NCBI GenBank assembly: GCA_946220865.1
Contig: CAMJYM010000007.1
Span: 1,959 to 65,958 of the forward strand
Length of the DNA: 64,000 nt
Source of the DNA: an uncultured Clostridia bacterium
GTDB lineage: Bacteria > Bacillota > Clostridia > Saccharofermentanales > DTU023
Direction: 5' to 3'
This document shows, piece after piece, positions 3,922 through 46,252 of the stretch. The notes below the pieces were generated by a model. The model made no database searches and was not told the origin of the DNA. It saw only the letters and a list, made by a program, of their open reading frames with translations. How positions within the stretch are numbered: the stretch's first letter is position 1; the number at the start of each line of letters is the position of its first letter. Made by a program: the position numbers and the translations under genes.

Positions 3922-4002
3922 TATTTTATATTTTTGTGATATAAGATTATTTTTAAGTCCATTTCACGTCTTTTAGGCATATATTTTATTAAAAATTGGC
4001 AA

Positions 4003-4032: not shown

Positions 4033-4050
4033 CTATCCAGAACATCTTGT

Positions 4051-4062
4051 GATAACGTTTTC
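4051..4062. promoter_or_regulatory. candidate LacI-family operator, promoter-proximal copy
   Basis: GATAACGTTTTC lies about 20 nt downstream of the -10 box. It has the form of LacI/CcpA-type operators (A/T-rich arms around a central CG). Confidence 0.45.
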
Positions 4063-4129
4063 TCTTTTATAGAGCCTAATGTTGATCGCAGGAAAGGATA
4101 ATACAAAACAGAAAGGTGTAGGTAAGTTC

Positions 4130-5260: not shown

Positions 5261-5318
5261 TAATGATTTCTTTAGCCGGAGTGCCAGAAGCACTCCGGTG
5301 CCTCGAAAGGAGACGCTC

Positions 5319-5798: not shown

Positions 5799-5807
5799 GA
5801 GGAAAGC

Positions 5808-7304
5808 ATGGACCAAATAATTGGCGTACTAAAATGGATGGTGACCCCAGAATTCATCCTTTTCACTTTTTTGGGTTCGTTAGCTGGGCTCTTTGTTGGT
5901 TCGATACCCGGTCTTTCAGTGACTATGGCCACTGCCTTGCTGGTATCTGTCACCTATAGTTGGCAAACTTCAAATGCTTTAGCCACAATTATGGGAGTTT
6001 ATGTTGTAGGCGTATATTCTGGCGCATTGTCTGCCATTTTAATCAATATTCCCGGAGCACCCTCTTCCGTAGTAACTACTTTGGATGGTTATCCTCTGGC
6101 AAAGAAAGGGGAGTCCTACAAAGCGCTTAAATACGCTACAATTTATTCTTTTGTCGGCTCATTCTTTGGCCTCTTAGTCTTATGGATTGCTGCAAAACCC
6201 GTAACTAATCTAGCCCTAAAATTCACCCCAATGGATTACTTTCTCTTGGCTCTGTTTGGTCTTGCAACCGTTGGTTCTCTGACAACCAAGAGTTTTTCTA
6301 AGGGTTTAATTAGTGCCGTACTCGGATTGATGCTAAGTATGGTCGGTATTGATAGTGTCGTAGGGACTCCTCGTCTAACTTTTGGACTCCAGGAATTAAA
6401 CAGCGGTATCAGTATCGTACCTGCTCTAGTCGGCCTTTTTGGTTTCTCTGAAGTGCTTTATGTCATCTCCAACGGTACCGCTGACGGTGAAGTTGCAAAA
6501 ATTGTGAGGAGTGTCGTCAAGACCAAAGATATCCTAAAACACTTCTTTGTCTCATTATATTACTGTGTTATTGGGACCTTTGTTGGCGCTCTGCCTGGCG
6601 CTGGTGGACCCGTAGCTGCCTTCCTCGCTTATTCTGAAGCCAGAAGAATCAACAAGAAACCTTCAGTCCCCTTTGGTGAAGGTGCCGTAGAGGGAATTGT
6701 GGCGAGTGAATCTGCCAATAACGCCTGTATCGGCGGCGCCCTTATTCCGATGTTAACATTAGCCATCCCTGGCGATGCCGTGACGGCCATTATCCTTTCT
6801 GTCTTTTATGTTCACGGCTTACGTCCTGGACCCATGTTTTTGATGGAAAGTCCAGATATGTTTCAGATGATCCTTGCAGGCGGATTTTTAGGATGTTTAT
6901 TTTTGCTGCTCCTGGGCACTCTGGTAGCTCCTCGTGTCAGTAAGATCATCAATATTCCGAAAAACCTATTGCTACCTGTTGTCACTGTACTCTGTGTTAT
7001 TGGCGCATTCGCTGGTAATAATCGTATGTTTGATGTAGCTCTTATGTTTATGCTCGGGATTATCGGCTACTTCATGCGCCGTCGTGGTTACTCCGTTGCT
7101 CCTATGACTTTAGCCTTAGTTCTTGGTAATATGATGGATTCAAATTTCCGCAGAGCAATTTCTCTTGCGTCCTCAGAATCCAATAAAATGGCTGCTCTGT
7201 TTGGTCGCCCCATTACCCTGATTCTTCTATTTCTCACCGTCATCACTGTGACATTAAACATCCCTGCCGTAAAACGCAGTTTAGCAAAAATAAAAAATCA
7301 CTGA
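5808..7304 (+). CDS. tctA: tripartite tricarboxylate transporter large permease (TctA family)
   Basis: 498-aa polytopic membrane protein with TctA-like organisation (GSIPGLS..., PGAGGPVAAFLAYSEA). RBS AGGAGG precedes ATG 5808. Confidence 0.85.
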   Translation: MDQIIGVLKWMVTPEFILFTFLGSLAGLFVGSIPGLSVTMATALLVSVTYSWQTSNALATIMGVYVVGVYSGALSAILINIPGAPSSVVTTLDGYPLAKKGESYKALKYATIYSFVGSFFGLLVLWIAAKPVTNLALKFTPMDYFLLALFGLATVGSLTTKSFSKGLISAVLGLMLSMVGIDSVVGTPRLTFGLQELNSGISIVPALVGLFGFSEVLYVISNGTADGEVAKIVRSVVKTKDILKHFFVSLYYCVIGTFVGALPGAGGPVAAFLAYSEARRINKKPSVPFGEGAVEGIVASESANNACIGGALIPMLTLAIPGDAVTAIILSVFYVHGLRPGPMFLMESPDMFQMILAGGFLGCLFLLLLGTLVAPRVSKIINIPKNLLLPVVTVLCVIGAFAGNNRMFDVALMFMLGIIGYFMRRRGYSVAPMTLALVLGNMMDSNFRRAISLASSESNKMAALFGRPITLILLFLTVITVTLNIPAVKRSLAKIKNH

Positions 7305-7424
7305 TATTTCGGCAGGTAAATCAAAAAGTGAAAAGGTGAAATCTTTTTAGCCAGTAAACTTATCAACAGCGCACTGCGCATAAGGATCCACATAATAACT
7401 ATTAAATAAGAATGGGAGTTCATC

Positions 7425-8717
7425 ATGAAAATAAGCTCAAGCAAAAGTGAATTAAAAGGCCGTATTATTGTTCCTGGATCGAAAAGCCATACTATCAGAG
7501 CCATTTTGCTCTCAGCCATGGCTGAAGGCAAGTCGATCATCCACAATCCCCTGACCAGCAATGATTGCAAAAGCGCTGCACATGCCGCAAGGCTGTTTGG
7601 GGCTAAAGTTGACGAAGATGATGGCGTTTGGTATGTCCAAGGGGTCGGAAAAAATTTAAAAATTCCAGATGATATTGTCGATTGTGGTAATTCAGGCACA
7701 GCGACCATTTTCGTCATGGGTATGGCGGCTTTACTCAACGGCTACGCCGTCATCACAGGTGATGAGCAAATTCGCAGGAGACCTGTTCATTGGTTGTGTC
7801 AAGCGCTCAATGACCTGGGAGCCAAAGCCTTGATTACCCGTCCTGGGCATCAAGCTCCCCCAGTCGTCGTAGGAGGACCGATGCAAGGAGGAACTGCTGT
7901 TTTTGATGGCTTTAACTCACAGGTCGTTTCCGCTACGATGTTATCGAGTGCCATTTGTGGCAAACAGGTAGAGATTAAAGTTGAGCATCCCCTTGAAAAG
8001 CCCTATCTTCAGATGACGATTGATTGGATGAAAAAATTCGGAGTTGACCTTGTAGAAAAAAGTGATGATTATACTCACTTTATTCTCGATGGCCAAGGTG
8101 AGTATCATCCAATAGAGGCAACCGTACCGAGTGATTGGTCCGGCGTTGCCTTTCCTCTTGTTGCCTCGGTCATCACTTCTTCTGATGTCATCATTGAAGG
8201 ACTGGACTTTAACGATGCTCAAGGTGACAAAGTTGTCGTTGACCACCTGCTACGCATGGGAGCAAAAATCGAAAAAAATGAAGATAAGGGACAAATTCAC
8301 ATTATCGGTGGCACTCCTTTAAAAGCTGGTTTGGAAATTAATCTGAACGATACTCCGGACGCGCTACCAGCCCTCGCTGTAGCTGCAGCTTTTGCTGAAG
8401 GGGAAACTACCTTTACAGGCTTAGCCCACGTGAGAGTGAAGGAAACGGATAGGGTTGCTGTAATGGAAGAACAACTCGGGCTCCTTGGTGTAAAAACTCA
8501 CAGCACAAAAGACTCCATGATTGTTTACGGAGGGCAAGGCTTAAAATCTCAGGTTGTATCTAGTAAAAAAGACCATCGTATTGCTATGGCACTTGCCGTT
8601 GCTGGCCTTGCGTCTGAGGGAGTTGTAACCGTAGAGGATGCAGAGTGTGCAGATGTCTCATTCCCTGGTTTTTATCAACAAATGCAAAAACTGGGAGCAA
8701 AGTTTAAAGAATTCTAA
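7425..8717 (+). CDS. aroA: 3-phosphoshikimate 1-carboxyvinyltransferase-like enolpyruvyl transferase (EPSP synthase family)
   Basis: 430 aa with motifs PGSKSHTIRA, GNSGTA, NSQVVSA, NDTPDALPALAVAAAFAEG, RVKETDR and KDHRIAMA. The genomic context is atypical (see findings). Confidence 0.75.
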   Translation: MKISSSKSELKGRIIVPGSKSHTIRAILLSAMAEGKSIIHNPLTSNDCKSAAHAARLFGAKVDEDDGVWYVQGVGKNLKIPDDIVDCGNSGTATIFVMGMAALLNGYAVITGDEQIRRRPVHWLCQALNDLGAKALITRPGHQAPPVVVGGPMQGGTAVFDGFNSQVVSATMLSSAICGKQVEIKVEHPLEKPYLQMTIDWMKKFGVDLVEKSDDYTHFILDGQGEYHPIEATVPSDWSGVAFPLVASVITSSDVIIEGLDFNDAQGDKVVVDHLLRMGAKIEKNEDKGQIHIIGGTPLKAGLEINLNDTPDALPALAVAAAFAEGETTFTGLAHVRVKETDRVAVMEEQLGLLGVKTHSTKDSMIVYGGQGLKSQVVSSKKDHRIAMALAVAGLASEGVVTVEDAECADVSFPGFYQQMQKLGAKFKEF

Positions 8718-34665: not shown

Positions 34666-34960
34666 GTGCAACGTAGCAACTAATGGATGGTTTTCCTTTG
34701 GTTTTTCTGATTTTTATGCAACTTAGCAACTAGTGGATGGGTCCGCGTGCAAGATTCAAAGTAGTGGATGGTTCGGCGTGCAAGTTCTCAAGTAATGGAT
34801 GGTTTTAGCCTTAGTTGGCTGAGGCTAACCATCCACTACTTGAATTTTTGTCCAAAATTCAGGAAATCCGAAATGAGAGCGGGGGCCAGCCGAGCTAAAC
34901 CGCGCCACGTCTCGTTGGCTCCCACGCTGCGTTCTCGCCCTCACCATGTCACGCGGCGCT
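34666..34960 (+). repeat. left inverted arm of the sugar cassette, built from reiterated 31-bp words
   Basis: Terminal 25-mer GTGCAACGTAGCAACTAATGGATGG (34666-34690), then 3 further degenerate units ending in TGGATGG, a long hairpin at 34788-34843 and a shared inner segment. Confidence 0.8.
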
Positions 34961-34968: not shown

Positions 34969-36330
34969 CTAATGGACGTTCAGTTCGCCTTTTTGCTCCA
35001 GCTCACGGACAATTTTGCTGTAATAGTCTTCACTGATAATGTACTTCCGGCGATAGATCCAGTAACCCAGCAAAATGAAGACCAGCGGCAGGACGAGCAT
35101 AAAAATCTTGATGGTCAGCTTTCCGCTCGCATCGAGGACTTCAGCAGCAGTGTCCCCTGCCTTAACTCCCGAAAGCAGCAGGCAGAAACTGGTCAGGCCC
35201 ATGGCTACAGCGCCGCCGATTTTATTGATGAGGGGCTGGACGGAGAAAGTGATGCTCTCGTTGCGTTTGCCCAGCTTGAGCTGGCCATATTCCACGGTAT
35301 CCGCCAAAAACATTAACATCAGAAGCTGAATGAAAGCCTGGCCGACAAAGAGGAAAAGGGCGGCTAGGCTGATTAAGCCGAGGCTGCTGTCTGCGAAGAA
35401 AAAAATGGCGTAGCCCACGAGCACAAGGCCCGTTGCCAGCGCGTAAAAGCTGCGACGATTGAGGCGTTTTGATATGAGGGGAAAAATCGTGAGCGAGCTG
35501 AGCTGTGCGACGCCCACAACCGCACCGAGCACCGGATACATGTCCGCGTTCCCGAAAACATATTGCATAAAATAGATGGAAAGGGTTGTCGTGCTCATAT
35601 AACCAATCGTAAAGAGAGACATCGAAAGGGTCGTCCAGAGCAGCTGATCGTTGGCGGTCAGCACGTGCCAGAGTCCAGCCAGACTGGTCTTTTCCTGCTC
35701 GTGGGTCTGGACTTTTTCGCGCACGCCGAAGATCGTAAAAAGCTGGAAAAACAACATCGCAAGGGTGCAGCCAAGTGCAATCTGGAACCAGGCCCGGCTG
35801 TCGCCCCCCAGGGCTTTGCTCAGCGGCTGCCAGCCGACCATGATGGCAAACATCCCGAGATTCGCACAGATACGGGCAAAAGCCCCCATCTTCTCGCGCA
35901 CTTTCTGATCGACACTGAGCGAAGGCAGCATGGACCAGTAGGCAATATCATTGAGGCCGTAAAAGATATCCCAGATCAGGTAAGCCAGCACAAAGACAAA
36001 CACAAAGCGGGAATCACGGAAACCAAAATCCGTAAAGAAAAACATATAGCTCACGCCCCCGACCAGAGCGCCGATCAGCATGGGCGGCTTGAATTTTCCT
36101 CTCTTCCAGCGGCCATTGTCGACGATGAGACCCATCAGCGGGTCATTGAGGGCATCGAAAACACGCAGAATCGTATAAATGAGACTGGTCGTGACAAAAA
36201 GGGCTTTGGGCAGATCCAGGACATTCGACAGATAATAGATCAGCGCATTTGCTTCGAGAGCGTAGAACATATCACGCCCGATGGTCCCGAGTCCGAAATA
36301 AATCATGTTTTTCCGGTCTTCGTGCTTCAT
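34969..36330 (-). CDS. glycoside-pentoside-hexuronide (GPH) family cation symporter, MelB-like
   Basis: 453-aa, 12-TM MFS/GPH-type protein (YFGLGTIGRDMFYA, DALNDPLMGLIVD). Confidence 0.85.
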   Translation of the reverse strand: MKHEDRKNMIYFGLGTIGRDMFYALEANALIYYLSNVLDLPKALFVTTSLIYTILRVFDALNDPLMGLIVDNGRWKRGKFKPPMLIGALVGGVSYMFFFTDFGFRDSRFVFVFVLAYLIWDIFYGLNDIAYWSMLPSLSVDQKVREKMGAFARICANLGMFAIMVGWQPLSKALGGDSRAWFQIALGCTLAMLFFQLFTIFGVREKVQTHEQEKTSLAGLWHVLTANDQLLWTTLSMSLFTIGYMSTTTLSIYFMQYVFGNADMYPVLGAVVGVAQLSSLTIFPLISKRLNRRSFYALATGLVLVGYAIFFFADSSLGLISLAALFLFVGQAFIQLLMLMFLADTVEYGQLKLGKRNESITFSVQPLINKIGGAVAMGLTSFCLLLSGVKAGDTAAEVLDASGKLTIKIFMLVLPLVFILLGYWIYRRKYIISEDYYSKIVRELEQKGELNVH

Positions 36331-38684
36331 TTTTCTTCACCACTTTCCTCTTGATAGTCTTCGGCCTGGAGCAGATAGAGCTGTGAGCCAAAATCACCCC
36401 AGAGCCGCAGATCTTTATGATAACCTGTGCCGATAAACTGATTGTTCAGGCAAATGCCCGCCGCCAGTGCCGCGCCGCTGGCCTGAACAGAAAAAGCTCC
36501 ATCATCCAGACTGTATCTGGCGTCGATCAGGGCAAAAAGCGGACTGCGCGCTTTGATTTTGATGGGCAGGGCATGTTTGATCAGATGCCCGAAGCGGCGA
36601 AGCGCCAGCTTCTGCGGCACGGTTTTCAGCTGATAGCGTACTTCAGGCAGAAGGCCCTTCAGACAAAGCATATCATTGCTCTCAGCCGCCCGGGCAAGGG
36701 CCTGAGCCAGCAGCGCCACAGCTTTTTGACCAGACTCATCCACACAGAGCCACTGATACTTGTTGGCTTTAAAGCTCTCGCCCCGATAAAATTTGCCAAA
36801 TTGGAAAAGCCGCCGGTACTGTTTGTAAAAAGCCAGCTGCTGTTCGACTTCCTTCGCTTCTTCTTTGCTCAGTTCGCCGGGATCCAGCTCGTAGCCAAGC
36901 AGACCAAAAGCGGCCACATTGAAACGGGTGCTGAGGGGCGTGTCACGCAGGGTCTGCTGATGCGGGGCCAGCGAGACATGCGCCCCCATGCTGGAGAGTG
37001 GATAAAAAAGCGAAAGTCCACTTTGAATACGCAGCCGTTCAATCGGGTCAGTGTTGTCGGAAGCCCAGATCTGCGGCGAAAAAGCCAGCATGCCGAGGTC
37101 AAAGCGATTGCCCCCGGAAGAACAGCTCTCCAGCAAGATCTGCGGCCGCGGCCCGAAAATGCGATCCAGAATCTCGTAGAGGCCTAGGATATAGCGATGA
37201 CAGAACTCCCCGGCCAAGCAGCCAGGCGAATAAAATTCGCTCATGTGCCGGTTCATATCCCATTTGACATAGTCAATTTCGGCGCTGTCCAGAAGCTCTG
37301 AGACTTCCTTCACAATGTAGTCGCGAACCTCCGGGCGAGTCAGATCCAGCAAAAACTGGTGCCGCGAGGTCAGCGGCTTAAGCCCGGGCGCGGAAATAGC
37401 GTAATCCGGATGGGCCCGATAGAGCTCGCTGTCCGGGTTGACCGACTCCGGCTCCAGCCAGAGTCCGAAGCTGAGGCCCATCTCATGAATGCGGCGGGCC
37501 AGAGCCGGGAGACCGGAAGGAAGTTTTCCGGAATTAACCGTGTAATCTCCCAGACCGGCGCGGTCGTTGTCTCTCGCAGCAAACCAGCCATCGTCCAGCA
37601 CAAAGAGCTCCACACCAAGTTTGCGCCCCTGTTCGGCCAGCTTCAGCAGTGTATTCTCGGTAAAGTCAAAATTCAGAGCCTCCCAGCTGTTCAGGAGAAG
37701 CGGGCGCTCTTTCATCCTCCAGGGACCGCGGACGATGTGCTCGTTGACAAAGCGATGAAAATTCTGGCTCAAGCCGTTCAGGCCCTGATCTGAAAAACTG
37801 AGGATCGCTTCGGGTGTCTCAAAAGTCGCTCCCTGGTCCAGATACCAATGAAAGGACTGGGGATTGATCCCGCCCGCCACCCGAACAAGCTCGTGTGAAC
37901 TTAATTCAAGCAGCGTGAAATGGTTGCCACTGTATATAAGGTTGAAGCCATAGACAAAGCCCTGATCCTCGTTTGCCCCTGCTTCGGCCAGAATCACCCC
38001 AGGATTCTGACGATTCGAAGAGTCCCCGGTAGTGCTCTGATTGATCAGAAGGCCCTGAACAAGCGGCTGTTCGGTTCTTTCCGCTTCCCGGATCCAATCG
38101 CCCGTCAGGCTGAGCATACGAAAGTTGCGATTGGGCAGATCCAGGAGAAAGCTCAGAAAACGGTGCAGAGTTACCGCTTCTTTTCCCTGATTCAATAAGA
38201 CAGCCCGCCGGCTGATCACATTGGTCTCCGGATAAACGGTGTAGATCAACTGCAGACGCAGCGGATGTGCCTGCTCCTGCAGGGTCAGGGTCAGCGTCTG
38301 TACCCGGGAAGAATCCCCTGCTGTTGCGGTGGGCAGGCCCTGCATCGGCTTGACGCCATCACACAAGTCGTAGTCAACAAAGAGAAAATCATGGCTCAAA
38401 CTGCCATCGGCAAAACACAGTTCCAGGGGCGGCTGACGATAATCTCCCCGCCCGACGCCCGACCAGTTCAGGGGCAGATTGTCGAGGGAAAATTCGCTTT
38501 CCTCATCCCACATGACCTGAGAGCCATAGGGCATCGTCCGACGATAACGCAGAGCCGCAGCATCTTCGGTCTGCACTCTGGGGCCATAGTAAATCTGTTC
38601 CAGATGGCCAAAATCCCCCACGCAGAAAAGATAGGAGCTGGCGTCTGTCTGCAGATGGAAAAGCTTGTCCCTGACTTCAATCAT
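36327..38684 (-). CDS. alpha-galactosidase, GH36
   Basis: 785 aa with DYVKWDMNR and CSSGGNRFD motifs and an AgaA/RafA-type N-terminus. Overlaps neighbouring genes at both ends. Confidence 0.9.
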   Translation of the reverse strand: MIEVRDKLFHLQTDASSYLFCVGDFGHLEQIYYGPRVQTEDAAALRYRRTMPYGSQVMWDEESEFSLDNLPLNWSGVGRGDYRQPPLELCFADGSLSHDFLFVDYDLCDGVKPMQGLPTATAGDSSRVQTLTLTLQEQAHPLRLQLIYTVYPETNVISRRAVLLNQGKEAVTLHRFLSFLLDLPNRNFRMLSLTGDWIREAERTEQPLVQGLLINQSTTGDSSNRQNPGVILAEAGANEDQGFVYGFNLIYSGNHFTLLELSSHELVRVAGGINPQSFHWYLDQGATFETPEAILSFSDQGLNGLSQNFHRFVNEHIVRGPWRMKERPLLLNSWEALNFDFTENTLLKLAEQGRKLGVELFVLDDGWFAARDNDRAGLGDYTVNSGKLPSGLPALARRIHEMGLSFGLWLEPESVNPDSELYRAHPDYAISAPGLKPLTSRHQFLLDLTRPEVRDYIVKEVSELLDSAEIDYVKWDMNRHMSEFYSPGCLAGEFCHRYILGLYEILDRIFGPRPQILLESCSSGGNRFDLGMLAFSPQIWASDNTDPIERLRIQSGLSLFYPLSSMGAHVSLAPHQQTLRDTPLSTRFNVAAFGLLGYELDPGELSKEEAKEVEQQLAFYKQYRRLFQFGKFYRGESFKANKYQWLCVDESGQKAVALLAQALARAAESNDMLCLKGLLPEVRYQLKTVPQKLALRRFGHLIKHALPIKIKARSPLFALIDARYSLDDGAFSVQASGAALAAGICLNNQFIGTGYHKDLRLWGDFGSQLYLLQAEDYQEESGEEK

Positions 38685-40455
38685 GGCATTCTTCCTCCTG
38701 CCTGGCCGTTCTGACCAAAGGAGCTCTTGTTTCCGCCTTCACCTCTGCGAAGTGGCTTGCTCGATCGCTGTCTTTTCCAGTCAACGGAGCTATTGCGTCC
38801 ACCTCCGGCTCGGCAGATGAAAAGCTTTTCTCTTCGCTCGTCGCCCGCATCAAAGCCGCCTCATAAGGCCGAAGCTTGCCCTGCTGGAGCGGTCCCGGGT
38901 AGTTGTGAAAGAGCAGTTCTCCGGAAAAACGGGGGCAGCAGACTTCTCTGGCACTCAGGTTGAGGACGGCCAGCAGCTTCTCCCCACCCTTTTCGCGGGC
39001 AAAGGCAAGGACCGGTCCTTTCTGGAAAAGCTCCCGGTAACTGCCGGTCTGCAGCGTATCACTCGTCTGGCGAAAACGCAGAAAAGCCTTGTAAAAATGC
39101 AGAATCGAATCCTGCTCCTCTTCTTCTGCAGCTACATTAACGCTGGGATATTGGCCGTTCACTTTCAGCCAGGGCGTACCTGTCGTAAATCCCGCTTCCG
39201 CTGAAGCATCCCACTGCATGGGCGTGCGTGCGTTATCGCGGCTCTTCAGACGTATCATCTTCCAACGCCAGGCTTTGGGGAAATGGAGTTTCTTCGTGAG
39301 TTTCCAGATATTGAGCGACTCGACATCCCTGACTTCCTCGATCGTGCGAAAATCAAAGTTGCTCATGCCAATTTCCTGCCCCTGGTAAATAAAAGGAGTC
39401 CCTCTCAGAGAGAGAAGCAGGAGAGCCAGCGCTTTGCCACTTTCTTTGCGGTAACGCTTCTCATCTCCAAAACGGGGGATGGAGCGGGGCTGATCGTGAT
39501 TTTCGAAATAATTGGCATTCCAGTCCAACTCTTTTTGCCAGCGGCTCAGTGTCCTGAGAAAACGCTGCGGCGAAAAACGCCGCAAAAACCATTTCACACC
39601 AAAACAATCCGTCTCCATATGGTCGAAGGCAAAGACCGCATTCAGCTCACCCCTCTCAGGAAGGGTCAGATCGGCCGCCTTTTTCGGCGTCACAAAGACC
39701 GTCTCCCCCACGGTAAAGCAGTCGTAACGGCTGAAAACCTCTGTGTGAAAGCGCTGCAGGAGACGATGCAGACCGGGTGTCGACAAATAGTGCTCGCAAC
39801 CCGTCAGCGCGGGACGCCAGCGCCCATTCTCCAATGATTCCTTATAAAGAATGTTGATAACATCGCAGCGAAAGCCATCCACCCCACGCTCCAGCCAGAA
39901 GCGCATGACATCCTGAACGGCCTCGATAACTGCTTCATTGTGGTAATTGAGATCGGGCTGTTCCCGGGCAAAAAGATGGAGATAATACTCCCCGCGCAGC
40001 TCGTCAAAAGTCCAGACATCCCCGCCGAAAAAGCTGCCCCAGTTATTGGGTTTGCGTCCCTTTTCGCCCTTACGCCAGATATAGAAATCCGTATAGGGTT
40101 CAATCCTCTGCCGGCTCTTCTGAAACCATTCATGCTGATCTGAAGTGTGATTGATCACCAGATCCATGATGATTTTAATATCACGACGATGAGCTTCCGA
40201 AATGAGTTCGTCCATCTGCTCCAGCGTCCCAAAGTGCGGATGAATATCGCAATAATCGCTGATATCGTAACCGTTATCCACATCCGGCGAAGGATAAAGA
40301 GGCGAAAGCCAGAGCACGCCTACACCCAGGTCTTTTAAATAATCAAGGCGCGAGAGGATGCCGCCGATATCTCCTAAGCCATCGCCATTGCTGTCACAAA
40401 AACTTCGCGGATAAATTTGATAGACAACCCTTTGTCTCCACCACTCCGACTCCAT
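38677..40455 (-). CDS. GH13 alpha-glucosidase / oligo-1,6-glucosidase-like
   Basis: QIYPRSFCDSNGDGLGD, GVDGFRCDVI and ENHDQPR motifs, plus a C-terminal extension of roughly 50-60 aa. Confidence 0.9.
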   Translation of the reverse strand: MESEWWRQRVVYQIYPRSFCDSNGDGLGDIGGILSRLDYLKDLGVGVLWLSPLYPSPDVDNGYDISDYCDIHPHFGTLEQMDELISEAHRRDIKIIMDLVINHTSDQHEWFQKSRQRIEPYTDFYIWRKGEKGRKPNNWGSFFGGDVWTFDELRGEYYLHLFAREQPDLNYHNEAVIEAVQDVMRFWLERGVDGFRCDVINILYKESLENGRWRPALTGCEHYLSTPGLHRLLQRFHTEVFSRYDCFTVGETVFVTPKKAADLTLPERGELNAVFAFDHMETDCFGVKWFLRRFSPQRFLRTLSRWQKELDWNANYFENHDQPRSIPRFGDEKRYRKESGKALALLLLSLRGTPFIYQGQEIGMSNFDFRTIEEVRDVESLNIWKLTKKLHFPKAWRWKMIRLKSRDNARTPMQWDASAEAGFTTGTPWLKVNGQYPSVNVAAEEEEQDSILHFYKAFLRFRQTSDTLQTGSYRELFQKGPVLAFAREKGGEKLLAVLNLSAREVCCPRFSGELLFHNYPGPLQQGKLRPYEAALMRATSEEKSFSSAEPEVDAIAPLTGKDSDRASHFAEVKAETRAPLVRTARQEEECHD

Positions 40456-40548
40456 CGACCTTCACCCCCCGGAAAACATCTTGCTAGAGCACAGGGCCAT
40501 TATTTCAGGCTCAAGGCTTTTTTTCAAACGTGAAGTGAGCCAGAATTA

Positions 40549-40954
40549 CCTTCGGTTTTCCTGAATTTCGGACAAAATTTCAAGTTGTGGATGGTTTCGC
40601 TCGGCTGGCGACGGCCTCAGCGTGGCTCCTCTCGGCTAGCGATGGTCCTTAGTGCAGTTTCGCTCAGCTGGATGTCTGCTTTCATTTCGGTTTTTCTGAA
40701 TTTCACACAAATTTTCAAGGTGTGGACGGTTAGCCTAGGAAAACTCAGGCCCAAACCATCCACACCTTGAGAACTTGCACGTCCAACCCATCCACAACTT
40801 GGAATCTTGAATGCGGGCCCATCCATTAATTGCTAAGTTGCATGAAAATCAGAAAAACCAAAGAAAAATCGTCCATTAGTTGAAACGTTGCATAAAAAAA
40901 GGGGCCCACCCAGCGCGAAAAAAGGATGACCATCCATTAGTTGCGACGTTGCAC
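40549..40954 (-). repeat. right inverted arm of the sugar cassette
   Basis: The reverse complement is collinear with 34666-34960. The terminal 25-mer is at 40930-40954. There are five CCATCCA...TTG...TTGCA units, and the inner TTGAAATTTTGTCCGAAATTCAGGAAAACCGAA segment occurs twice (about 40549-40600 and 40681-40730). Confidence 0.8.
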
Positions 40955-41037
40955 GATAATCAGAAAAGGCGAAGACAGAGAAGGCTTGTACCATACACTA
41001 CTCCCACCGCACCCCTTTTCACCGACAGGGCATATCT

Positions 41038-41149
41038 AAAATTTTTGCGGTAATCCGCATTTTTTTCACGAAGTCATTGTATCCCAGGACTGATGAAGAT
41101 ATCTAGTCTTAAATCTAAAATTTTTGCGGATTCCGCAATTTTTTCACGC
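41038..41149 (-). repeat. orphan copy (A) of the 110-bp promoter/operator cassette
   Basis: About nine-tenths identical by eye to 56175-56283 and in the same orientation. It contains the boxes TGCGGTAATCCGCA (41046-41059) and TGCGGATTCCGCA (41125-41137), each flanked by A/T runs and CACG. Confidence 0.8.
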
Positions 41150-41412
41150 TATATGCGGTCCATATCAGTCTGCGTCGCCTGCTCCAATTCGGCCATTCTC
41201 TCGTCTTTCGACGAATCCGTCTTGCCGAACAACGCCGGCAGATTTTCCTGAAACTGTTTATGCCACTTAGACAGAGTTGCCGGCGCTATCTGGTACGTTC
41301 CGGCCAGCTCATTTAGGCTCTTTTCCCCGCGTAATAGCTCACTGATGACTTTCGCTTTGAATTCTGCGCTGTAATTGGTTCTTTTCTTACTTATGTTTAC
41401 TATTGTATTCAC
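41149..41412 (-). mobile_element. IS3-family transposase OrfA, N-terminal part only
   Basis: KKRTNYSAEFKAKVISELLRGEKSLNELAGTYQIAPATLSKWHKQF is an HTH_Tnp_1-type OrfA. The reading frame ends at the edge of repeat A, and no OrfB follows. Confidence 0.7.
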
Positions 41413-41512
41413 TTACTGCCGACTATGCTTGTCTCATTTCTGGGGTCCACTACATATTGTTTTCGCTTGCTTCAGGTTTTTCCTGTCTCATTTTGGGGAC
41501 CACTATATTTGG

Positions 41513-43426
41513 TCACGATTTTAGTTGCTCCTGATATTCATTCCAATTCTTTTTCAGACTTGGAAGTTCAGAAAGAGCCAATCCGGCCGCGCTTAATACC
41601 ACACCCAACCACGTGGGAAAATCAATCTTTGATAACTTGCAAACACCCCATATAACAAATATCAAAGCCGCAACAATCAGCAATTTCCATACGATCGACC
41701 AGACAATTTTCAGAAGGGCTTTTCTGTCTTGCTTTTTCTTGGCTTTAGCCTTTTCCTGTGCTTCTATAGCATTTACTCTATCCGTCAGCTTATCAATCTG
41801 TTGTTGCTTTTCTTTCCTCTGAGCGAGTGCCTGAGAAAGCTGACCCTGCAATTCCTGAACATTGCCTGAAAGCTCTTGGATAGTTTTATCACGCTCCAAA
41901 AGTAATCTTCTGTTCTGAGCAAGAGTTTCTTGAGCTTGAGCAAAATGCTCCTCTGAGAAATCCAGCGAATCTTCAATATTGTCTTCGGTTAAATTCTCCG
42001 GAAGTGTAGTCTTTTCTTTCAGCGCTACAATTCTTGCCGCAGCATCCTCCTGGGAGAGTTCACCAGAAACTGCCTTGTTACGAATGTCCTTATATATAGT
42101 TGCAATTCCTTGTGTAATATAGCTGGCAAGTATCGTTCTTGCTTTAATGACCACATCCAGATTCTTAGGAAATTCTGTAGAGCCGAATCCACGATTTAAC
42201 TTATACCAGAGAAGATTTGTAATATAACTCAAGCTAATAGCATAATCACAGTATTTCTCCCCCGTTTCATTTCTTTGTGCTTCGGCAATTGCCTTGGAAA
42301 TTTCCCTTACCCGTCTTGTGTCGGTTACGCATAAATACTTGGATGCCAAGTAATCTGCAGTCTGGTATCCTTTCCGCAATTTATTGATGTGGCTGCAGAA
42401 CACGAAACCTTCTGTGTTAAGCTCATCTGTAACAGGATAAGCACCAATCTCTATGCCTTCGAGGCTATATTCAACATCTGCCGTGGTGTAGTAATTTTCC
42501 TTCTCATCTTTTCTGATGGAGTGCTCCGTATGAAGTTTCCTAAAAAACTCTACCTTCTTATCTGATATATCCGATATTGACTGACAACCATCAACAATGT
42601 CCTTCATCGCCTGCGTGAAGTTAATCTCTCCCCGCCCAGACAAAATGCGTTCAGCCCTGCCGTAAAACTGATCAACATCGTCCGCAACCTTTGAGAAATA
42701 TTTAAGTGTGATTACTTTCCCGCCGCGATTCGCATCATCGACCAGCTTTAAAAAGTCATCTGCCAGAGTTTTGAACAAAATCCCGTTCAATCCGGCAATA
42801 TCAAAGAGAATTTCTGTGTCCAAGAAAAGTGTAATCGGATGGCCAAGACTACCAAATTCCGAAATGTTAAAGGCAAGTCCTGAATACAGAATACTGCCTT
42901 CGCGGATAGCGGAGATTGTGTCCGTAATCGAATTGTTATTTTCATTCGTCAGTAAAAATTCACCGATAATCTGCTGGTATTGAGGCTCGCCATCCTCATC
43001 TAGAACAAAAGCTATAAATTCCTGAGCAAGCTTTTCTTTCCTTAGGTTCTGAACACCTTTTTCATCAGCATACCGTAGCAGCGCGTCAGTAATACCTTTG
43101 CTCTTCTCCTCTGATTGCTGTCGATAGGATTGGAATTTGGCATTGCCTTGAATAGTGCTTGCTTGATATGACTGATATGTTCTCTTAACGTCTGGAATAC
43201 TGCGTATTGCTGTCCTGATAACAGCAATCGGCGGGTTAAAGCCAAATTCCTCATTAAGATAACCTTGGATCTCTGTCGATGTAAAATTGTACAAAGATTT
43301 TAAAACAACAATATACTTTATGAACTCAGAGAGTATCTGATAAGGACTATGGTATTCTTTCGAATTATACAGCTCTTTAAATGTTGCATAAGACGCCATG
43401 ATGGATTTTGAATACGTTTGCCTCAA
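41513..43426 (-). CDS. hypothetical 637-aa protein with a C-terminal coiled coil and two TM helices
   Basis: Long AT-rich ORF with a TTG start 6 nt after GAGGTG. The C-terminus has heptad-rich QELSGNVQELQGQLSQALAQRKEKQQQIDKL, then ALLKIVWSIVWKLLIVAALIFVIWGV and WLGVVLSAAGLALSEL. No family was recognised. Confidence 0.7.
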   Translation of the reverse strand: MRQTYSKSIMASYATFKELYNSKEYHSPYQILSEFIKYIVVLKSLYNFTSTEIQGYLNEEFGFNPPIAVIRTAIRSIPDVKRTYQSYQASTIQGNAKFQSYRQQSEEKSKGITDALLRYADEKGVQNLRKEKLAQEFIAFVLDEDGEPQYQQIIGEFLLTNENNNSITDTISAIREGSILYSGLAFNISEFGSLGHPITLFLDTEILFDIAGLNGILFKTLADDFLKLVDDANRGGKVITLKYFSKVADDVDQFYGRAERILSGRGEINFTQAMKDIVDGCQSISDISDKKVEFFRKLHTEHSIRKDEKENYYTTADVEYSLEGIEIGAYPVTDELNTEGFVFCSHINKLRKGYQTADYLASKYLCVTDTRRVREISKAIAEAQRNETGEKYCDYAISLSYITNLLWYKLNRGFGSTEFPKNLDVVIKARTILASYITQGIATIYKDIRNKAVSGELSQEDAAARIVALKEKTTLPENLTEDNIEDSLDFSEEHFAQAQETLAQNRRLLLERDKTIQELSGNVQELQGQLSQALAQRKEKQQQIDKLTDRVNAIEAQEKAKAKKKQDRKALLKIVWSIVWKLLIVAALIFVIWGVCKLSKIDFPTWLGVVLSAAGLALSELPSLKKNWNEYQEQLKS

Positions 43427-43665
43427 GCCAGATCACCTCTCTTACTTTTGTGCTTCTCGATTCTTAATATACCCTTGGTGTCAATGACATCAATCACAGC
43501 TCCTAGGTTTACTGCTCCATTCGATTCATGGGATTAAACCTTGGTTACTTGCAAAGCCTGTGCGCCGGCCTATATTGACTATACGCTTTACAAACTCCGT
43601 ATCCAATCAAATCACCTAGCCCATTATTGATTATATCGTCAAGCTCGGCAAGACCGATGCCACAG

Positions 43666-43983
43666 TTATACTGTATAACTTCTAGGAAAGCCGAGATAGC
43701 TACAGCTATCAGAACTACCCACACCCTCGGCCATATGACGCAATATCGTCAGTGGAACGAACAGCCAGATGTTATTAAGGATCTCCAAGCGAAGGGATGG
43801 CGAAGAAAAGAACTGCTTATAAAACAAGAACAGCTCCATTTCCCCCATAGCATCTCCTTCCGCTTTATACATAAGCGTCATGCAGATGATGAAAATGAGG
43901 TAATAAACCAAGAGTACCGCATTCCATTTTTTACCCAGCATCAGAGAAAGCAAGGCAACAAGAATTCCAATAACCACAACCAC
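43666..43983 (-). CDS. small membrane protein, possibly a truncated VanZ-like protein
   Basis: Two to three hydrophobic segments, and NNIWLFVPLT resembles the VanZ N-x3-F-x-P motif. A competing plus-strand ORF (43627..44046) looks less protein-like. Confidence 0.3.
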   Translation of the reverse strand: MVVVIGILVALLSLMLGKKWNAVLLVYYLIFIICMTLMYKAEGDAMGEMELFLFYKQFFSSPSLRLEILNNIWLFVPLTILRHMAEGVGSSDSCSYLGFPRSYTV

Positions 43984-44125
43984 AATTGGATTATTGTGCA
44001 GCCATTATTTAGATCGAAGAATTCCTTTTCATCTTTATCCAGGTAGATCTTTTATCCTTTCACATGCTTGACCCATACTGCCCATGGGAAAGTGAGATCT
44101 GCTGATTGTTAATGTCGTAATACGT

Positions 44126-44359
44126 CTACGTATCCACAGTATCATTCGAGTAGAAAGTTCGTATGACTGTGGTGTATCCAAGGCTTTTGGGTGTCGATAA
44201 GCCGGACGCGTTGAGATAAGTCACTACGGCTTTTCTTCCCAACTCATCATACTCGTAGAGGACTCCGTATTGCCCCATGGTAAGCGGTATCGGCCTATCC
44301 TCTTCATCATAATACATCTCGGTCTCAATTCTTCCATTCCCATAGAACGTTCTCTTCAT
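44126..44359 (-). pseudogene. RHS/YD-repeat protein fragment
   Basis: 77 aa with YD-type repeats (YEYDELGRKAVVTY, FYGNGRIETEMYYDEEDRP). It is isolated, with no flanking RHS core. Confidence 0.4.
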
Positions 44360-44499
44360 TATTGCGTATCCAGACTTTTTCTGGTAGGCTTACCTTCTAG
44401 GGTCAGCTGAATCAATCAGCAAGACAGTTTAAATATTATTGGCTGCCAAGTGTCATCAACAGAAAACTGGGAGCCATTTTCTTTCCTGTTTAAGCCGAA

Positions 44500-45010
44500 A
44501 GAGCCATAGCAAAATGGGTGCAAAAAGATCTCTCAGGATCTTTTGCAGGTTCATTACCAAGAAGGTCAGATGGATTGAGGTTTCGCTCGTATCCTAGCGA
44601 CGCATCATCACGCGACCCAGGGAATAGCCGCTTTTGCCTTCTCCAAACTTGCCTTCAAGCGAGTTTCATTCCCTAGGCTCTTTTACCACTCCAGACGTTT
44701 CAACTCAGCATACTGTACCTTGTCTTAGGGCGGCCTGCCCAGTAGTCGTTCGTTCAAATGGATACCGTGTTCCTTGCAGTAACTCATTCTCGTTCGGAAG
44801 ATCTAGTGTGCTTGGACACGTTCTGGGTAGTGGCCGCATCTGGCGTGGTAGGCCTCGTTGGCCCGGTTCGCCCCTGTGAAGACTTTCAAATTCCAAAGTT
44901 TTCAGATGCGTCAGGATATCTCTTTGCGTCTTTTGCTGTGGCTTGCAGGTTTCGTCTATATTACGCTGCCTCCTTTATCAAAAGAGGATAAGGTATCATA
45001 AATTGCGCAC
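44500..45010 (-). mobile_element. candidate 5-prime fragment of a group II intron (domains I-III), ORF-less
   Basis: The minus strand starts GTGCGC at 45010. The stretch is GC-rich and stem-rich with no ORF. CCTAAG...TATGC resembles the tetraloop-receptor motif. A long-range pairing CTAGGGAAT / ATTCCCTGG is present. The 3-prime limit is uncertain. Confidence 0.4.
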
Positions 45011-45090
45011 ATTGAAAAAATAAGGAACACGGTGGGTTCCCTCACTTGGTAAGATAGGTTTGAGCAAAAACACCGAGGAGGAAACGAACC

Positions 45091-45246
45091 GTGTCTGAGA
45101 AAATTATACAGTTGAACGAAGAAGCAATAAAAGGCGAACTGGGGAATCTGGTACGACAAAGTGTGGAGGATACGCTGAATGCGCTGCTGGATGCAGAAAC
45201 AGATCGTCTGACGAACGCGAGCCGCTATGAGCGAACGGAAGGATGA
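45091..45246 (+). mobile_element. IS256-family transposase, N-terminal 51 codons only
   Basis: VSEKIIQLNEEAIKGELGNLVRQSVEDTLNALLDAETDRLTNASRYERTEG-stop matches the conserved IS256/Mutator N-terminus (NALLDAE...YER). Confidence 0.7.
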
Positions 45247-45329
45247 GTCGTTTAGGCGGAGCACAGCGTGAGCTGATTCCCCCCCCTCATGGGGGATTCT
45301 AAAAAACACCAGGTGATTCAAGAAAGTGC

Positions 45330-45431
45330 ACAAGACTATTGACGGTACCGTATGTTAAATCGCGGATCAAAATGTCTTTAGGCGGTATGAGTCCTTTAGA
45401 ATACAGGAACAGCTTGGGGCTCTGCGGTTAA
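45330..45431 (+). mobile_element. IS3-family OrfB (integrase) C-terminal remnant
   Basis: PYVKSRIKMSLGGMSPLEYRNSLGLCG-stop matches the conserved IS3 OrfB tail (RIK..L...SP.EYR). Confidence 0.6.
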
Positions 45432-45475
45432 ACAGATCAGGTCCAGGATTTTGTCCGCACCCCCGGGTTTGAAAT

Positions 45476-46252
45476 TTATTTTGCCCGTTTACATTCAAAC
45501 CGATAGATTGCTTCTAATATAACCTGTATTTCATCCTTCCAACCGTGGTACAAACGCTCATTGGTAGTCTCATAAACAACATCATCATTAATCAAGTTCC
45601 CAGATACAGCAGAAATCATGGCTCCACGGCATTTTCGCCGGTGGCAGATCGTATAAATAGCACTGCTTTCCATATCAACATTCAAGCATCCAAGCTTTGA
45701 TAACTTTTCAATCCATTCAGGTGTTTCTCCATAAAAAGCATCATCAACTGCATTTATGCCATAGTGTAGACCGTAGCCAAGTTGCGGCTGAAGTTCCCGC
45801 GCTACTTCAAGGATGGTCGAAGTAAGATCAAAATCAGGCACAGCCGGGAAACAGTCGGGAACATAGAATTTAGAGGTTCCCTCATTCTTCATTGATCCAG
45901 TAGAAATGATAAGATCGCCAATCTTGATATCAGACTGCAGAGCACCCGTGCTTCCGATTCTAATGAGACATTTGGCTCCGATATTAATGAGTTCTTCACA
46001 GGCAATAGCTGCAGATGGACAACCCATGCCTGTAGAAGTAGTCGAAATGGTGATCCCCTTATACGTCCCAGTAAAAGTACGGTGTTCTCGATGATCAGCC
46101 ATTAACTTAGGCTGATCGAGATATTCCGCGACAATATCACTTCTTTTTGGATCACCTGGAAGTAAAACATATTCACCTACATCTCCTGGTGCAAGATGAA
46201 TGTGGTATTGGCGTTTTCCGAGTGTTCTTTCTTCTTTGTTAAGTATCTGCAT
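45476..46252 (-). CDS. nucleoside phosphorylase, PNP/UDP family (uridine phosphorylase-like)
   Basis: HIHLAPGDVGEYVLLPGDPKRSD, STGMGCPSAAIACEEL and DMESSAIY motifs. Confidence 0.85.
   Translation of the reverse strand: MQILNKEERTLGKRQYHIHLAPGDVGEYVLLPGDPKRSDIVAEYLDQPKLMADHREHRTFTGTYKGITISTTSTGMGCPSAAIACEELINIGAKCLIRIGSTGALQSDIKIGDLIISTGSMKNEGTSKFYVPDCFPAVPDFDLTSTILEVARELQPQLGYGLHYGINAVDDAFYGETPEWIEKLSKLGCLNVDMESSAIYTICHRRKCRGAMISAVSGNLINDDVVYETTNERLYHGWKDEIQVILEAIYRFECKRAK

What the first reader, a model, noticed from the sequence alone, without database searches (positions are those of the whole stretch)
41513..43426. Orphan 637-aa protein with a coiled coil and a two-TM tail in a mobile-element junkyard
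Seen in the sequence. This is a long AT-rich ORF with a credible RBS and no recognisable family. The central region has acidic PIN-like strand motifs (ITLFLDTEILFD, later YLCVTDTRRV). A heptad-rich coiled coil of about 80 aa follows, ending in two hydrophobic helices. It is flanked by IS3, RHS, IS256 and intron-like fragments. Established knowledge: stand-alone effectors with C-terminal 2-TM modules are common in abortive-infection and signalling defence systems. Inference: a candidate membrane-anchored Abi-type effector or mobile-element accessory protein. The PIN-like reading is weak.
Basis: inference. Interest (0 to 1): 0.6.

Follow-up and report, generated by a model that had tools for sequence, protein, structure and literature searches.

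The report
Membrane-anchored PIN-like protein, likely phage defence
This intact 637-residue gene is not an orphan: it belongs to a large unnamed bacterial family that sits beside or inside restriction and BREX phage-defence operons, and some distant members end in a true copy of the mitochondrial calcium uniporter pore.

Summary
The ORF is real: window 41513-43426, minus strand, 637 aa, TTG start with a GAGGTG ribosome-binding site. It has no Pfam, NCBIfam, PADLOC or PHROG match. "Orphan" is wrong, though. A profile search finds 1,526 cluster representatives at E<=1e-3 and 675 at E<=1e-30, nearly all about 650 aa.

AlphaFold models (pLDDT 83 and 90) show five parts:
- a winged-helix-like N-terminus;
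- a helical region;
- an alpha/beta core whose best fold matches are PIN domains, all statistically weak;
- a stalk about 80 aa long with coiled-coil heptad periodicity;
- a two-helix membrane hairpin.

Relatives are stand-alone genes. They lie between brxC and pglX of a BREX operon, directly after type I R-M operons in at least four diverged lineages, after a type III R-M, at mobile-element edges, and at a prophage end in E. coli.

Distant members pass Pfam's threshold for the mitochondrial calcium uniporter (MCU) and carry WDIMEP. The window protein's loop and second membrane helix align to theirs (P=7e-7), but the pore glutamate is missing (IDFPTW).

Best reading (about 0.45): a single-gene abortive-infection protein in which a cytoplasmic sensor or nuclease is coupled to an oligomeric membrane pore. 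No function was shown.

The parts
41513..43426 (-). Whole ORF: 637 aa, TTG start, TAA/TGA stop included
   Evidence: One search lists the ORF. One search finds full-length homologs at 37-82% identity. Searches find the identical protein on 10 metagenomic or genomic contigs.
43434..43439 (-). Ribosome-binding site GAGGTG, 7 nt before the TTG start
   Evidence: Read from the sequence.
43466..43493 (-). Sigma-70-like promoter match (TTGATG, 16 nt spacer, TATATT). This is a consensus match only.
42857..43426 (-). aa 1-190: a conserved N-terminal module. It has a winged-helix-like unit (four helices and a beta hairpin, aa 9-89) followed by a helical bundle (aa 96-185).
   Evidence: Secondary structure. 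One search gives a local Foldseek hit to the ASFV I73R winged helix (7viv: TM 0.64, probability 0.96, E 1.4), which is weak. Searches show the invariant motif ASYATFK..Y..PYQIL.EFI.
42191..42841 (-). aa 196-412: alpha/beta core with a PIN-like fold and a helical insert at about aa 272-351. Conserved residues are [D/E]203, E205, D224, N233, D286, K290, R351, T368, T403-N404 and W407.
   Evidence: One search gives the domain model (pLDDT 89.9). One search shows PIN domains as the best PDB matches. Searches give the conservation counts.
41957..42169 (-). aa 420-490: conserved helical linker, including the K428-A429 and P476-E477 motifs
41708..41953 (-). aa 492-573: stalk with coiled-coil character, rich in Gln, Lys and Glu with no proline, ending in the basic stretch KAKAKKKQDRK
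   Evidence: predicts one continuous helix. One search gives the heptad test (p about 0.001). One search shows the tail profile hits only coiled-coil proteins in the PDB.
41639..41707 (-). aa 574-596: TM1 (IVWSIVWKLLIVAALIFVIWGVC), with a nearly invariant W-K pair
   Evidence: Hydropathy; conservation.
41615..41638 (-). aa 597-604: short outside-facing loop KLSKIDFP. D602 aligns with the Asp of the MCU WDIMEP filter. The filter Glu position is T605 in the ungapped alignment.
   Evidence: One search gives the hhalign result (probability 92%, P=7e-7). One search gives controls: reversed sequences P=3e-3 and 6e-3, column shuffles 0.27-0.76.
41564..41614 (-). aa 605-621: TM2 (TWLGVVLSAAGLALSEL), rich in small residues with Gly conserved at three positions
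41513..41563 (-). aa 622-637 plus the stop codon: short amphipathic C-terminal helix. It stands where MCU-type members have a second coiled coil of 50 aa or more.
41149..41412 (-). Flank: IS3-family OrfA remnant (87 aa, HTH_Tnp_1 only, no catalytic ORF)
43545..43983 (-). Flank: VanZ-like gene broken into two overlapping ORFs
   Evidence: VanZ E=3e-7. One search gives a tblastn match to the intact VanZ that sits beside homolog P0010.

Best explanation
The gene encodes a stand-alone, membrane-inserted anti-phage or anti-mobile-element protein of the abortive-infection type. The N-terminal 490 residues are predicted to sit in the cytoplasm: a winged-helix-like unit, a helical bundle and a PIN-like alpha/beta core. 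This region would recognise an infection cue, most plausibly an invading nucleic acid or the failure of a neighbouring restriction system. An 80-residue coiled-coil stalk would hold several copies together and pass the signal on. It connects to a two-helix membrane hairpin that is evolutionarily related to the pore of the mitochondrial calcium uniporter. On activation the hairpins would form or open an oligomeric cation-conducting pore. That would collapse the membrane potential and stop phage growth at the cost of the cell.

Shown here: the gene, the size of the family, the domain layout, the MCU-type tails in distant members, and the defence-island contexts of relatives.

Inferred: cytoplasmic topology, oligomerisation, pore activity, the trigger, and the defence function itself.
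For: 1. The ORF is real and conserved. One search finds 675 cluster representatives at E<=1e-30, almost all full length.
2. No partner gene is conserved. The only neighbour families that recur across 30 loci are recombinases and one type I R-M block. This fits a one-gene system.
3. Relatives sit in defence contexts:
- between brxC and pglX of a type 1 BREX operon (L022);
- directly after hsdR-hsdM-hsdS in L028, L030/L038 and L031, where HsdR is 65-69% identical and the family protein 52-53% identical, so the linkage is old;
- after hsdR in L009-L013;
- after a type III mod-res pair in L041;
- near SoFic, PDC-S34 and HEPN genes.
4. Relatives sit in mobile contexts:
- serine recombinases occur in 10 of 30 loci;
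- one copy sits at the edge of an integrative element;
- Enterobacterales plasmids carry copies;
- an E. coli copy lies at the ssrA end of a lambdoid prophage.
5. Some copies are decayed: L037, L044 and L045. This is common for defence genes.
6. The tail links to a known pore:
- P0234, P0260 and P0210 pass Pfam's MCU gathering score (48.7, 36.5 and 35.8 bits against 30.8);
- 15 of 243 members carry W[DEN]xxE[PQ] between the two TM helices;
- the window clade's loop and TM2 align to theirs at P=7e-7, far better than the controls.
7. The basic stretch before TM1 and the short loop fit an N-in, C-in topology like MCU's, judged from the sequence by the positive-inside rule.
Against: - The window copy is not next to any defence system. 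It lies between a nucleoside-uptake operon and a sugar operon.
- MCU-type members in Bacteroidota sit in variable regions with no obvious defence neighbours.
- The window protein has no Pfam MCU hit. Its tail profile alone finds only coiled coils in the PDB.
- The pore Glu is absent, and the loop Asp is not conserved across the family. The hairpin could therefore be only an anchor.
- All PIN fold matches have E>=0.04.
- No PADLOC model matches.
- I did not compute the background rate of R-M adjacency.
Confidence: 0.45

Rival explanations
1. It is a membrane-tethered PIN-like nuclease. The two-TM hairpin and the coiled coil only anchor and dimerise the protein under the membrane. There the PIN-like core cuts phage or plasmid nucleic acid as it enters, or cuts host RNA as a toxin. 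No pore is involved.
For: - PIN domains are the best fold matches. FEN- and PIN-like nucleases lead the weak viral matches.
- Positions 205 and 224 are acidic in 55 of 55 diverse members and position 203 in 45 of 55. T368 (Thr or Ser in 55 of 55) resembles the conserved Thr/Ser of PIN active sites.
- The prophage-end location in E. coli is typical of entry-blocking membrane proteins.
- The loop acid is not conserved across the family.
Against: - The canonical four-acid PIN constellation is not recovered. Position 369 is acidic in only 24 of 55 members and N404 replaces a possible fourth Asp.
- Ten of 55 members lack an acid at position 203.
- No PIN Pfam model matches any member.
- A mere anchor would not need a true MCU pore domain with WDIMEP in distant members, nor conserved Gly spacing in TM2.
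Confidence: 0.25
2. It is a mobile-element accessory protein that is not immunity in the strict sense, for example a superinfection or entry-exclusion factor, or an addiction module that travels with prophages, integrative elements and plasmids.
For: - Recombinases are the commonest neighbours, in 10 of 30 loci.
- Copies sit at the edge of an integrative element, on plasmids near Hok and a recombinase, and at a prophage end.
- An IS remnant flanks the window copy.
Against: - Embedding inside BREX and repeated linkage to R-M operons points to defence islands rather than to one class of element.
- No conserved antitoxin-like partner exists.
Confidence: 0.12
3. It is a housekeeping or stress-gated cation channel: a bacterial counterpart of MCU whose large cytoplasmic domain regulates ion flow, unrelated to conflict.
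For: - Distant members carry a true MCU domain, and one source names such a member 'Calcium uniporter protein'.
- Bacteroidota copies lie beside housekeeping genes.
Against: - Distribution is patchy: 4 of 5,426 E. coli genomes.
- Copies are decayed in some genomes, and many lie in mobile or defence contexts.
- No synteny is conserved.
- The window protein has lost the Ca-binding Glu.
Confidence: 0.08
4. In this genome the gene is an unexpressed relic of a decayed island.
For: Its neighbours are broken: a VanZ gene split in two and an IS3 OrfA-only remnant.
Against: - The 1,914-nt frame is intact and has an RBS and a promoter-like site.
- The identical protein occurs on 10 contigs from different samples.
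- All family-invariant residues are kept.
Confidence: 0.05

Closest known systems
Mitochondrial calcium uniporter pore subunit (MCU, Pfam PF04678)
   Same: - The order of elements is the same: coiled coil, TM1, short outside loop, TM2, with both ends on the electrically negative side.
- Distant members of this family pass the Pfam MCU threshold and carry WDIMEP.
- The window clade's loop and TM2 align to theirs.
   Different: - The window protein has IDFPTW, so the Ca-coordinating Glu is absent.
- The second coiled coil is reduced to about 15 residues.
- It has no Pfam MCU hit.
- The N-terminal 490 residues have no counterpart in eukaryotic MCU.
PIN-domain nucleases (SMG6/EST1A, Nmd4, VapC, the PhoH-associated PIN 3ix7)
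   Same: - They are the best structural matches to aa 186-490.
- The hhhDTE motif at the end of the first strand resembles the PIN hhhDTN motif.
- A conserved acid lies in the second helix (D224) and a conserved Thr follows a later strand (T368).
   Different: - The matches are weak (E 0.04-0.3, TM 0.44-0.57).
- There is a large helical insert of about 80 aa.
- The full four-acid site is not conserved.
- No PIN sequence profile matches.
PrrC and RloC, the restriction-linked back-up abortive-infection nucleases
   Same: They are single genes sitting inside or beside type I or type III R-M operons. This fits a second-line role when restriction is blocked. The comparison rests on context and on established knowledge of PrrC.
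   Different: - They share no sequence or fold with this protein.
- PrrC and RloC are soluble ABC-ATPase plus anticodon-nuclease proteins with no membrane part.
- The linkage here is facultative (L032 and the window copy lack it).
Membrane effectors of abortive infection: RexB, AbiZ, HEPN-TM, and the SLATT or 2TM effectors of CBASS-type systems
   Same: They share the logic of a cytoplasmic sensing or nuclease part joined to a small TM module that damages the membrane. NCBIfam SLATT_1 gives a faint hit to aa 547-633 (E 0.06).
   Different: - The SLATT score (13 bits) is far below its cut-off (41 bits).
- No PADLOC model of these systems matches.
- No signalling-nucleotide partner gene is present.

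Membership tests
PIN domain-like superfamily | Three-layer alpha/beta/alpha fold with a parallel sheet, detectable by structure comparison | tested here: inconclusive
PIN domain-like superfamily | Three or four conserved acidic residues forming the metal site | tested here: inconclusive
   positions 205 and 224 are acidic in 55 of 55 members, position 203 in 45 of 55 and position 250 in 47 of 55. Position 369 is acidic in only 24 of 55 and position 404 is Asn. Without model coordinates I could not map these onto the PIN site.
PIN domain-like superfamily | Match to a PIN-family sequence profile | tested here: not met
   no PIN Pfam family matches the window protein (E<=1), and none is among the families matched by the 55 diverse members (E<=0.01).
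PIN domain-like superfamily | Metal-dependent nuclease activity | not testable with these tools
   This needs biochemistry.
MCU (PF04678) | Pfam profile match at or above the gathering score (30.8 bits) | tested here: not met
   no MCU hit for the window protein. The threshold is met by distant family members P0234, P0260 and P0210 and by many relatives with precomputed PF04678.
MCU (PF04678) | Coiled coil, TM1, loop, TM2, coiled coil layout | tested here: inconclusive
   coiled coil, TM1, an 8-residue loop and TM2 are present. The second coiled coil is only a helix of about 15 residues.
MCU (PF04678) | W-D-x-x-E-P selectivity motif at the start of TM2 | tested here: not met
   The sequence reads KIDFPTW. 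One search aligns D602 with the motif Asp and T605 with the motif Glu.
MCU (PF04678) | Homology of the pore hairpin to true MCU-type tails | tested here: met
   hhalign probability 92%, P=7e-7 over 25 columns. controls: reversed sequences P=3e-3 and 6e-3, ten column shuffles 0.27-0.76. The aligned stretch is short and hydrophobic, so this is supportive rather than conclusive.
MCU (PF04678) | Calcium conductance as an oligomer | not testable with these tools
   This needs electrophysiology or flux assays.
SLATT 2TM effector | NCBIfam SLATT_1 profile match at or above 41 bits | tested here: not met
   13.3 bits, E 0.06.
Known anti-phage systems (PADLOC v2) | Match to a model of a described or candidate defence protein | tested here: not met
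   only coiled-coil noise (DruC E 0.024, LmuB E 0.26).
Defence-island gene (operational definition) | Recurrent placement beside or inside known defence systems in unrelated genomes | tested here: met
   Among relatives: BREX, type I R-M in at least four diverged lineages and type III R-M. The window copy itself does not meet this. I did not compute a genome-background rate.
Defence-island gene (operational definition) | Protection against phage on expression | not testable with these tools
   This needs a phage challenge.

The most novel reading that the evidence does not exclude
The bacterial 'MCU homologs' long noted in databases are the C-terminal effector modules of this widespread family, which is linked to defence islands and mobile elements and also carries a PIN-like module. 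On this reading the calcium uniporter pore is shared with, and perhaps descends from, a prokaryotic abortive-infection effector that lets cations flow down the membrane potential into the cell. The window protein would be a member without the DIME motif, whose pore has lost calcium selectivity.
Probability: 0.3. Interest if true: 0.85.

Novelty: new variant of a known kind. Interest (0 to 1): 0.66.

Why it matters
If the reading holds, this is an unnamed single-gene immune family found in Clostridia, Negativicutes, Spirochaetota, Bacteroidota, Campylobacterota and Enterobacterales. Current defence annotators miss it.

It would also give the bacterial relatives of the mitochondrial calcium uniporter a biological setting. 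That would add MCU to the list of eukaryotic machinery, alongside gasdermins, TIR and STING, that has counterparts in bacterial immunity.

Rare E. coli copies at a prophage end make the idea directly testable in a model organism.

Tried and rejected
- Pfam, NCBIfam, PADLOC and PHROG scans of the protein gave only coiled-coil or TM noise.
- Sequence and profile searches of the PDB gave nothing for aa 1-490.
- A Foldseek search with the full-length model gave no usable match, probably because of the 108-residue helix. I therefore modelled aa 186-490 alone.
- The BFVD viral library gave only weak FEN- and PIN-like hits.
- The PADLOC 'mad2' and 'mad5' hits among neighbours suggested a MADS system. 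They turned out to be cross-hits of ordinary type I HsdM and HsdS, so I rejected that idea.
- I searched for a conserved partner gene and found none. The 206-aa ORF that overlaps the start of homolog P0010 has no counterpart in the window.
- The tail profile of the window clade alone does not find MCU in the PDB.
- I looked for att-like direct repeats or a tRNA bounding the island and found none.
- Rfam found no intron or other RNA in 40300-45600.
- Literature searches linking the calcium uniporter to phage defence or conflict systems returned nothing relevant in the held library.
- The search for related loci failed with the diverse alignment, so the genome survey is biased towards the window's own clade.
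Full report
**1. The observation**

GAGGTG lies 7 nt upstream of the TTG, and a sigma-70-like match lies at 43493-43466. A database copy of the same protein (P0001) is called from the internal ATG and is 628 aa. Close homologs conserve the nine residues before that ATG (M-x-x-x-Y-S-x-S-I), and a 637-aa version is also on record. The long form is therefore correct.

GC is 0.42-0.43 here against 0.53-0.56 in the adjacent sugar operon. Both quoted motifs are present, at aa 198-209 and 364-373. Pfam, NCBIfam, PADLOC and PHROG scans return only coiled-coil or transmembrane noise.

**2. It is not an orphan**

A word-indexed search finds 413 relatives, the listed ones at 37-82% identity and mostly full length. 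An exhaustive profile search finds 1,526 cluster representatives at E<=1e-3 and 675 at E<=1e-30. Nearly all are 600-700 aa and match end to end.

Named sources include the following:
- Faecalibacterium prausnitzii, Saccharofermentanales, Selenomonas felix and Christensenellales;
- Spirochaetota and Bacteroidales;
- Helicobacter, including one phage record;
- Lewinella and Sphingobacterium;
- Streptococcus pacificus;
- plasmids of Citrobacter, Pantoea and Duffyella;
- four of 5,426 complete E. coli genomes.

Every source calls the protein hypothetical. The one exception is a UniRef name, 'Calcium uniporter protein', for a Sphingobacterium member.

**3. Anatomy**

An AlphaFold2 model of the whole protein (27-sequence alignment, mean pLDDT 82.9) and a second model of aa 186-490 (64 sequences, pLDDT 89.9) give this layout:
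- aa 9-89: four helices and a beta hairpin. There is a local, weak match to a winged-helix protein (7viv).
- aa 96-185: a helical bundle.
- aa 198-410: an alpha/beta core with a helical insert.
- aa 425-487: conserved helices.
- aa 492-599: one long helix, which continues into TM1.
- aa 603-618: a second hydrophobic helix.
- aa 623-636: a short terminal helix.

The stalk (aa 492-570) has heptad a/d positions that are 64% hydrophobic, against 43 +/- 5% in shuffles (p about 0.001). Its profile finds only tropomyosin-like coiled coils in the PDB. TM1 (aa 574-596) is strongly hydrophobic. TM2 (aa 605-621) is weaker and rich in small residues, with Gly conserved at three positions. A run of Lys and Arg precedes TM1 and the loop is only eight residues. 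I infer from this that both ends are cytoplasmic.

**4. The core domain**

With the trimmed model, the best PDB matches are PIN domains:
- SMG6/EST1A (2dok): probability 0.97, E 0.044, target TM-score 0.50.
- Nmd4 (8rd3_B): probability 0.97.
- A Kluyveromyces lactis RNA-decay protein (7qhy_B).
- A Thermus thermophilus domain of unknown function (3ix7): target TM-score 0.55-0.57.

None reaches E<=1e-3. The viral library gives equally weak hits, led by proteins whose names suggest FEN- or PIN-like nucleases.

Conservation across 55 members at 23-52% identity does not reproduce the textbook four-acid site:

| Position | Residues seen (of 55) |
|---|---|
| 203 | Asp or Glu in 45 |
| 205 | acidic in 55 |
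| 224 | acidic in 55 |
| 250 | acidic in 47 |
| 368 | Thr or Ser in 55 |
| 404 | Asn in 50 |
| 407 | Trp in 55 |

The domain could be a divergent active nuclease or a nucleic-acid-binding sensor. I cannot tell which.

**5. The tail and the calcium uniporter**

Scanning 55 diverse members against Pfam gave hits to PF04678, the mitochondrial calcium uniporter, in six of them. P0234, P0260 and P0210 pass the curated threshold, with 48.7, 36.5 and 35.8 bits against 30.8. Many relatives of P0234 carry the precomputed MCU assignment.

These members read TM1, G-W-D-I-M-E-P, TM2, then a coiled coil of 50 aa or more. Fifteen of 243 representatives have W[DEN]xxE[PQ] between the two TM helices. About 50 have at least 50 residues after the last TM helix, the MCU-like order.

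The window protein does not hit MCU, and its loop reads K-I-D-F-P-T-W. A profile-profile comparison of window-clade tails with MCU-type tails aligns loop plus TM2 over 25 columns, with probability 92% and P=7e-7. Reversed sequences give P=3e-3 and 6e-3, and ten column shuffles give 0.27-0.76.

D602 falls on the Asp of DIME. The Glu position is Thr in the ungapped alignment. Clades closer to the window protein keep W-E-F-G-T, as in F. prausnitzii. Across the family the loop acid is often lost.

I conclude that the hairpin is probably a diverged relative of the MCU pore and is not expected to be calcium-selective here. This step is inferred, and the aligned stretch is short.

**6. Genomic context**

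In the window and in identical contigs from other samples, the gene lies in a stretch of about 5 kb with no other intact annotated gene. On one side is a nucleoside-phosphorylase, Bmp and ABC-transporter operon. On the other is an alpha-glucosidase, melibiase and MFS operon. There is no defence system within 10 kb on either side.

The immediate flanks are an IS3-type OrfA remnant and a VanZ-like gene broken in two. The RHS, IS256 and intron readings were not confirmed.

Relatives are more informative:
- P0026 (58% identical) sits between brxC and pglX of a type 1 BREX operon. The same arrangement occurs in GTDB locus L022.
- P0076 follows hsdR of a type I system that has extra hsdS genes and an integrase.
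- In four GTDB species (L028, L030, L031, L038) the gene follows hsdR-hsdM-hsdS. HsdR is 65-69% identical and the family protein 52-53% identical among three of the lineages; L030 and L038 are close to each other. The linkage has therefore survived long divergence.
- L041 has a type III mod-res pair directly upstream.
- SoFic, a PDC-S34 candidate, and HEPN and Hypoth_Ymh genes are nearby.
- Serine recombinases occur in 10 of 30 loci and tyrosine integrases in four.
- The F. prausnitzii copy sits at the edge of an element with a relaxase, RepA_N and a serine recombinase.
- Enterobacterales copies are on plasmids near a recombinase or an IS, and the Citrobacter copy is also near Hok.
- The E. 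coli copy lies right after ssrA at the tail-fibre end of a lambdoid prophage.

No partner gene is conserved. Several copies are frameshifted or truncated.

Against this, MCU-type members in Lewinella, Sphingobacterium and a metagenomic lineage lie in variable regions without recognisable defence genes. I did not compute a background rate for R-M adjacency.

**7. Mechanism**

The best-supported reading is a one-gene abortive-infection protein. A cytoplasmic winged-helix plus PIN-like module senses an infection cue. A coiled-coil stalk holds several copies together. The MCU-related hairpins open a cation path that dissipates the membrane potential.

The orientation matches MCU. The bacterial cytoplasm corresponds to the mitochondrial matrix, so cations would flow inward down the potential. 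The repeated position after R-M operons suggests a second-line role like that of PrrC, but that is analogy only. I put the whole model at about 0.45 and the defence role alone at about 0.65.

The rivals, with my confidence in each:
- Tethered nuclease (0.25). The hairpin is only an anchor and the PIN-like core cuts incoming nucleic acid.
- Mobile-element exclusion or addiction factor (0.12).
- Housekeeping channel (0.08).
- Dead relic in this genome (0.05).

**8. Comparison and novelty**

The protein works like known sensor-plus-membrane-effector Abi proteins (RexB, AbiZ, HEPN-TM, SLATT and 2TM effectors). It is not a member of any of them: PADLOC gives nothing and SLATT_1 scores 13 bits against a cut-off of 41.

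By Pfam's criterion it is not a member of MCU, and it lacks the DIME glutamate. It does belong to a family whose distant members are true MCU-domain proteins. It is PIN-like by fold at weak significance and fails the sequence-profile test.

I found no paper in the held library that connects the calcium uniporter with phage defence or conflict systems. One paper on MCU evolution includes bacterial sequences in its tree.

I rate the finding a new variant of a known kind, with interest 0.66. The most novel reading not excluded is that the bacterial MCU relatives are immune effectors, and that the uniporter pore shares ancestry with them.

Noticed in passing
window 40573-40953 and 34788-34843: A motif of about 17-25 nt, AACCATCCACACCTTGA, occurs in both orientations. 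There are six matches with up to 3 mismatches against 0.13 expected. Four cluster at 40580-40802, upstream of the minus-strand alpha-glucosidase gene. An inverted pair lies just past the 3' end of the MFS gene, so the motif brackets the sugar operon at 34969-40455. It may be an operator array or a REP-like element.
   Followed up: partly
window 43545-43983 (minus strand): A VanZ-like gene is split into two overlapping ORFs of 105 and 59 aa, so it is probably a frameshifted pseudogene. An intact VanZ gene sits immediately beside the 77%-identical homolog P0010 in L064.
   Followed up: partly
window 41149-41412 (minus strand): An IS3-family OrfA remnant (HTH_Tnp_1 only) has no transposase catalytic ORF after it. 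The 51-aa ORF at 45091-45246 looks by eye like an IS256 transposase N-terminus, but it gave no Pfam hit.
   Followed up: partly
window about 40000-41000: GC drops from 0.53-0.56 (35-40 kb) to 0.41-0.45 (41-53 kb). The low-GC stretch extends well beyond the ORF into the nucleoside ABC-transporter operon, so low GC alone does not mark the ORF as foreign.
   Followed up: no
L007 13405-14427 and L064 6122-7066: A DUF2971 gene is inserted between pglX and pglZ in the BREX operon that also hosts the family member. Another DUF2971 gene lies three genes upstream of homolog P0010. DUF2971 may be a second recurrent companion in defence islands.
   Followed up: no
L009-L011 (about 1-7700): The type I R-M next to homolog P0076 has several hsdS genes or half-genes around a tyrosine integrase. 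This is the layout of a phase-variable specificity shufflon.
   Followed up: no
L063 12025-14043 (E. coli MS21324 chromosome): A 672-aa family member (WP_136676584.1) lies directly after ssrA, at the tail-fibre end of a lambdoid prophage. It is present in only 4 of 5,426 complete E. coli genomes and offers a handy entry point for experiments.
   Followed up: yes
L064 7384-8004: A 206-aa ORF with an N-terminal hydrophobic segment overlaps the start of homolog P0010 by 4 nt, which suggests translational coupling. It has no counterpart in the window or in other loci.
   Followed up: partly
L037, L044, L045: Some family copies in GTDB genomes are truncated or split by frameshifts (595 aa, 236 aa, and 240 plus 413 aa). 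This shows ongoing loss in some lineages.
   Followed up: no
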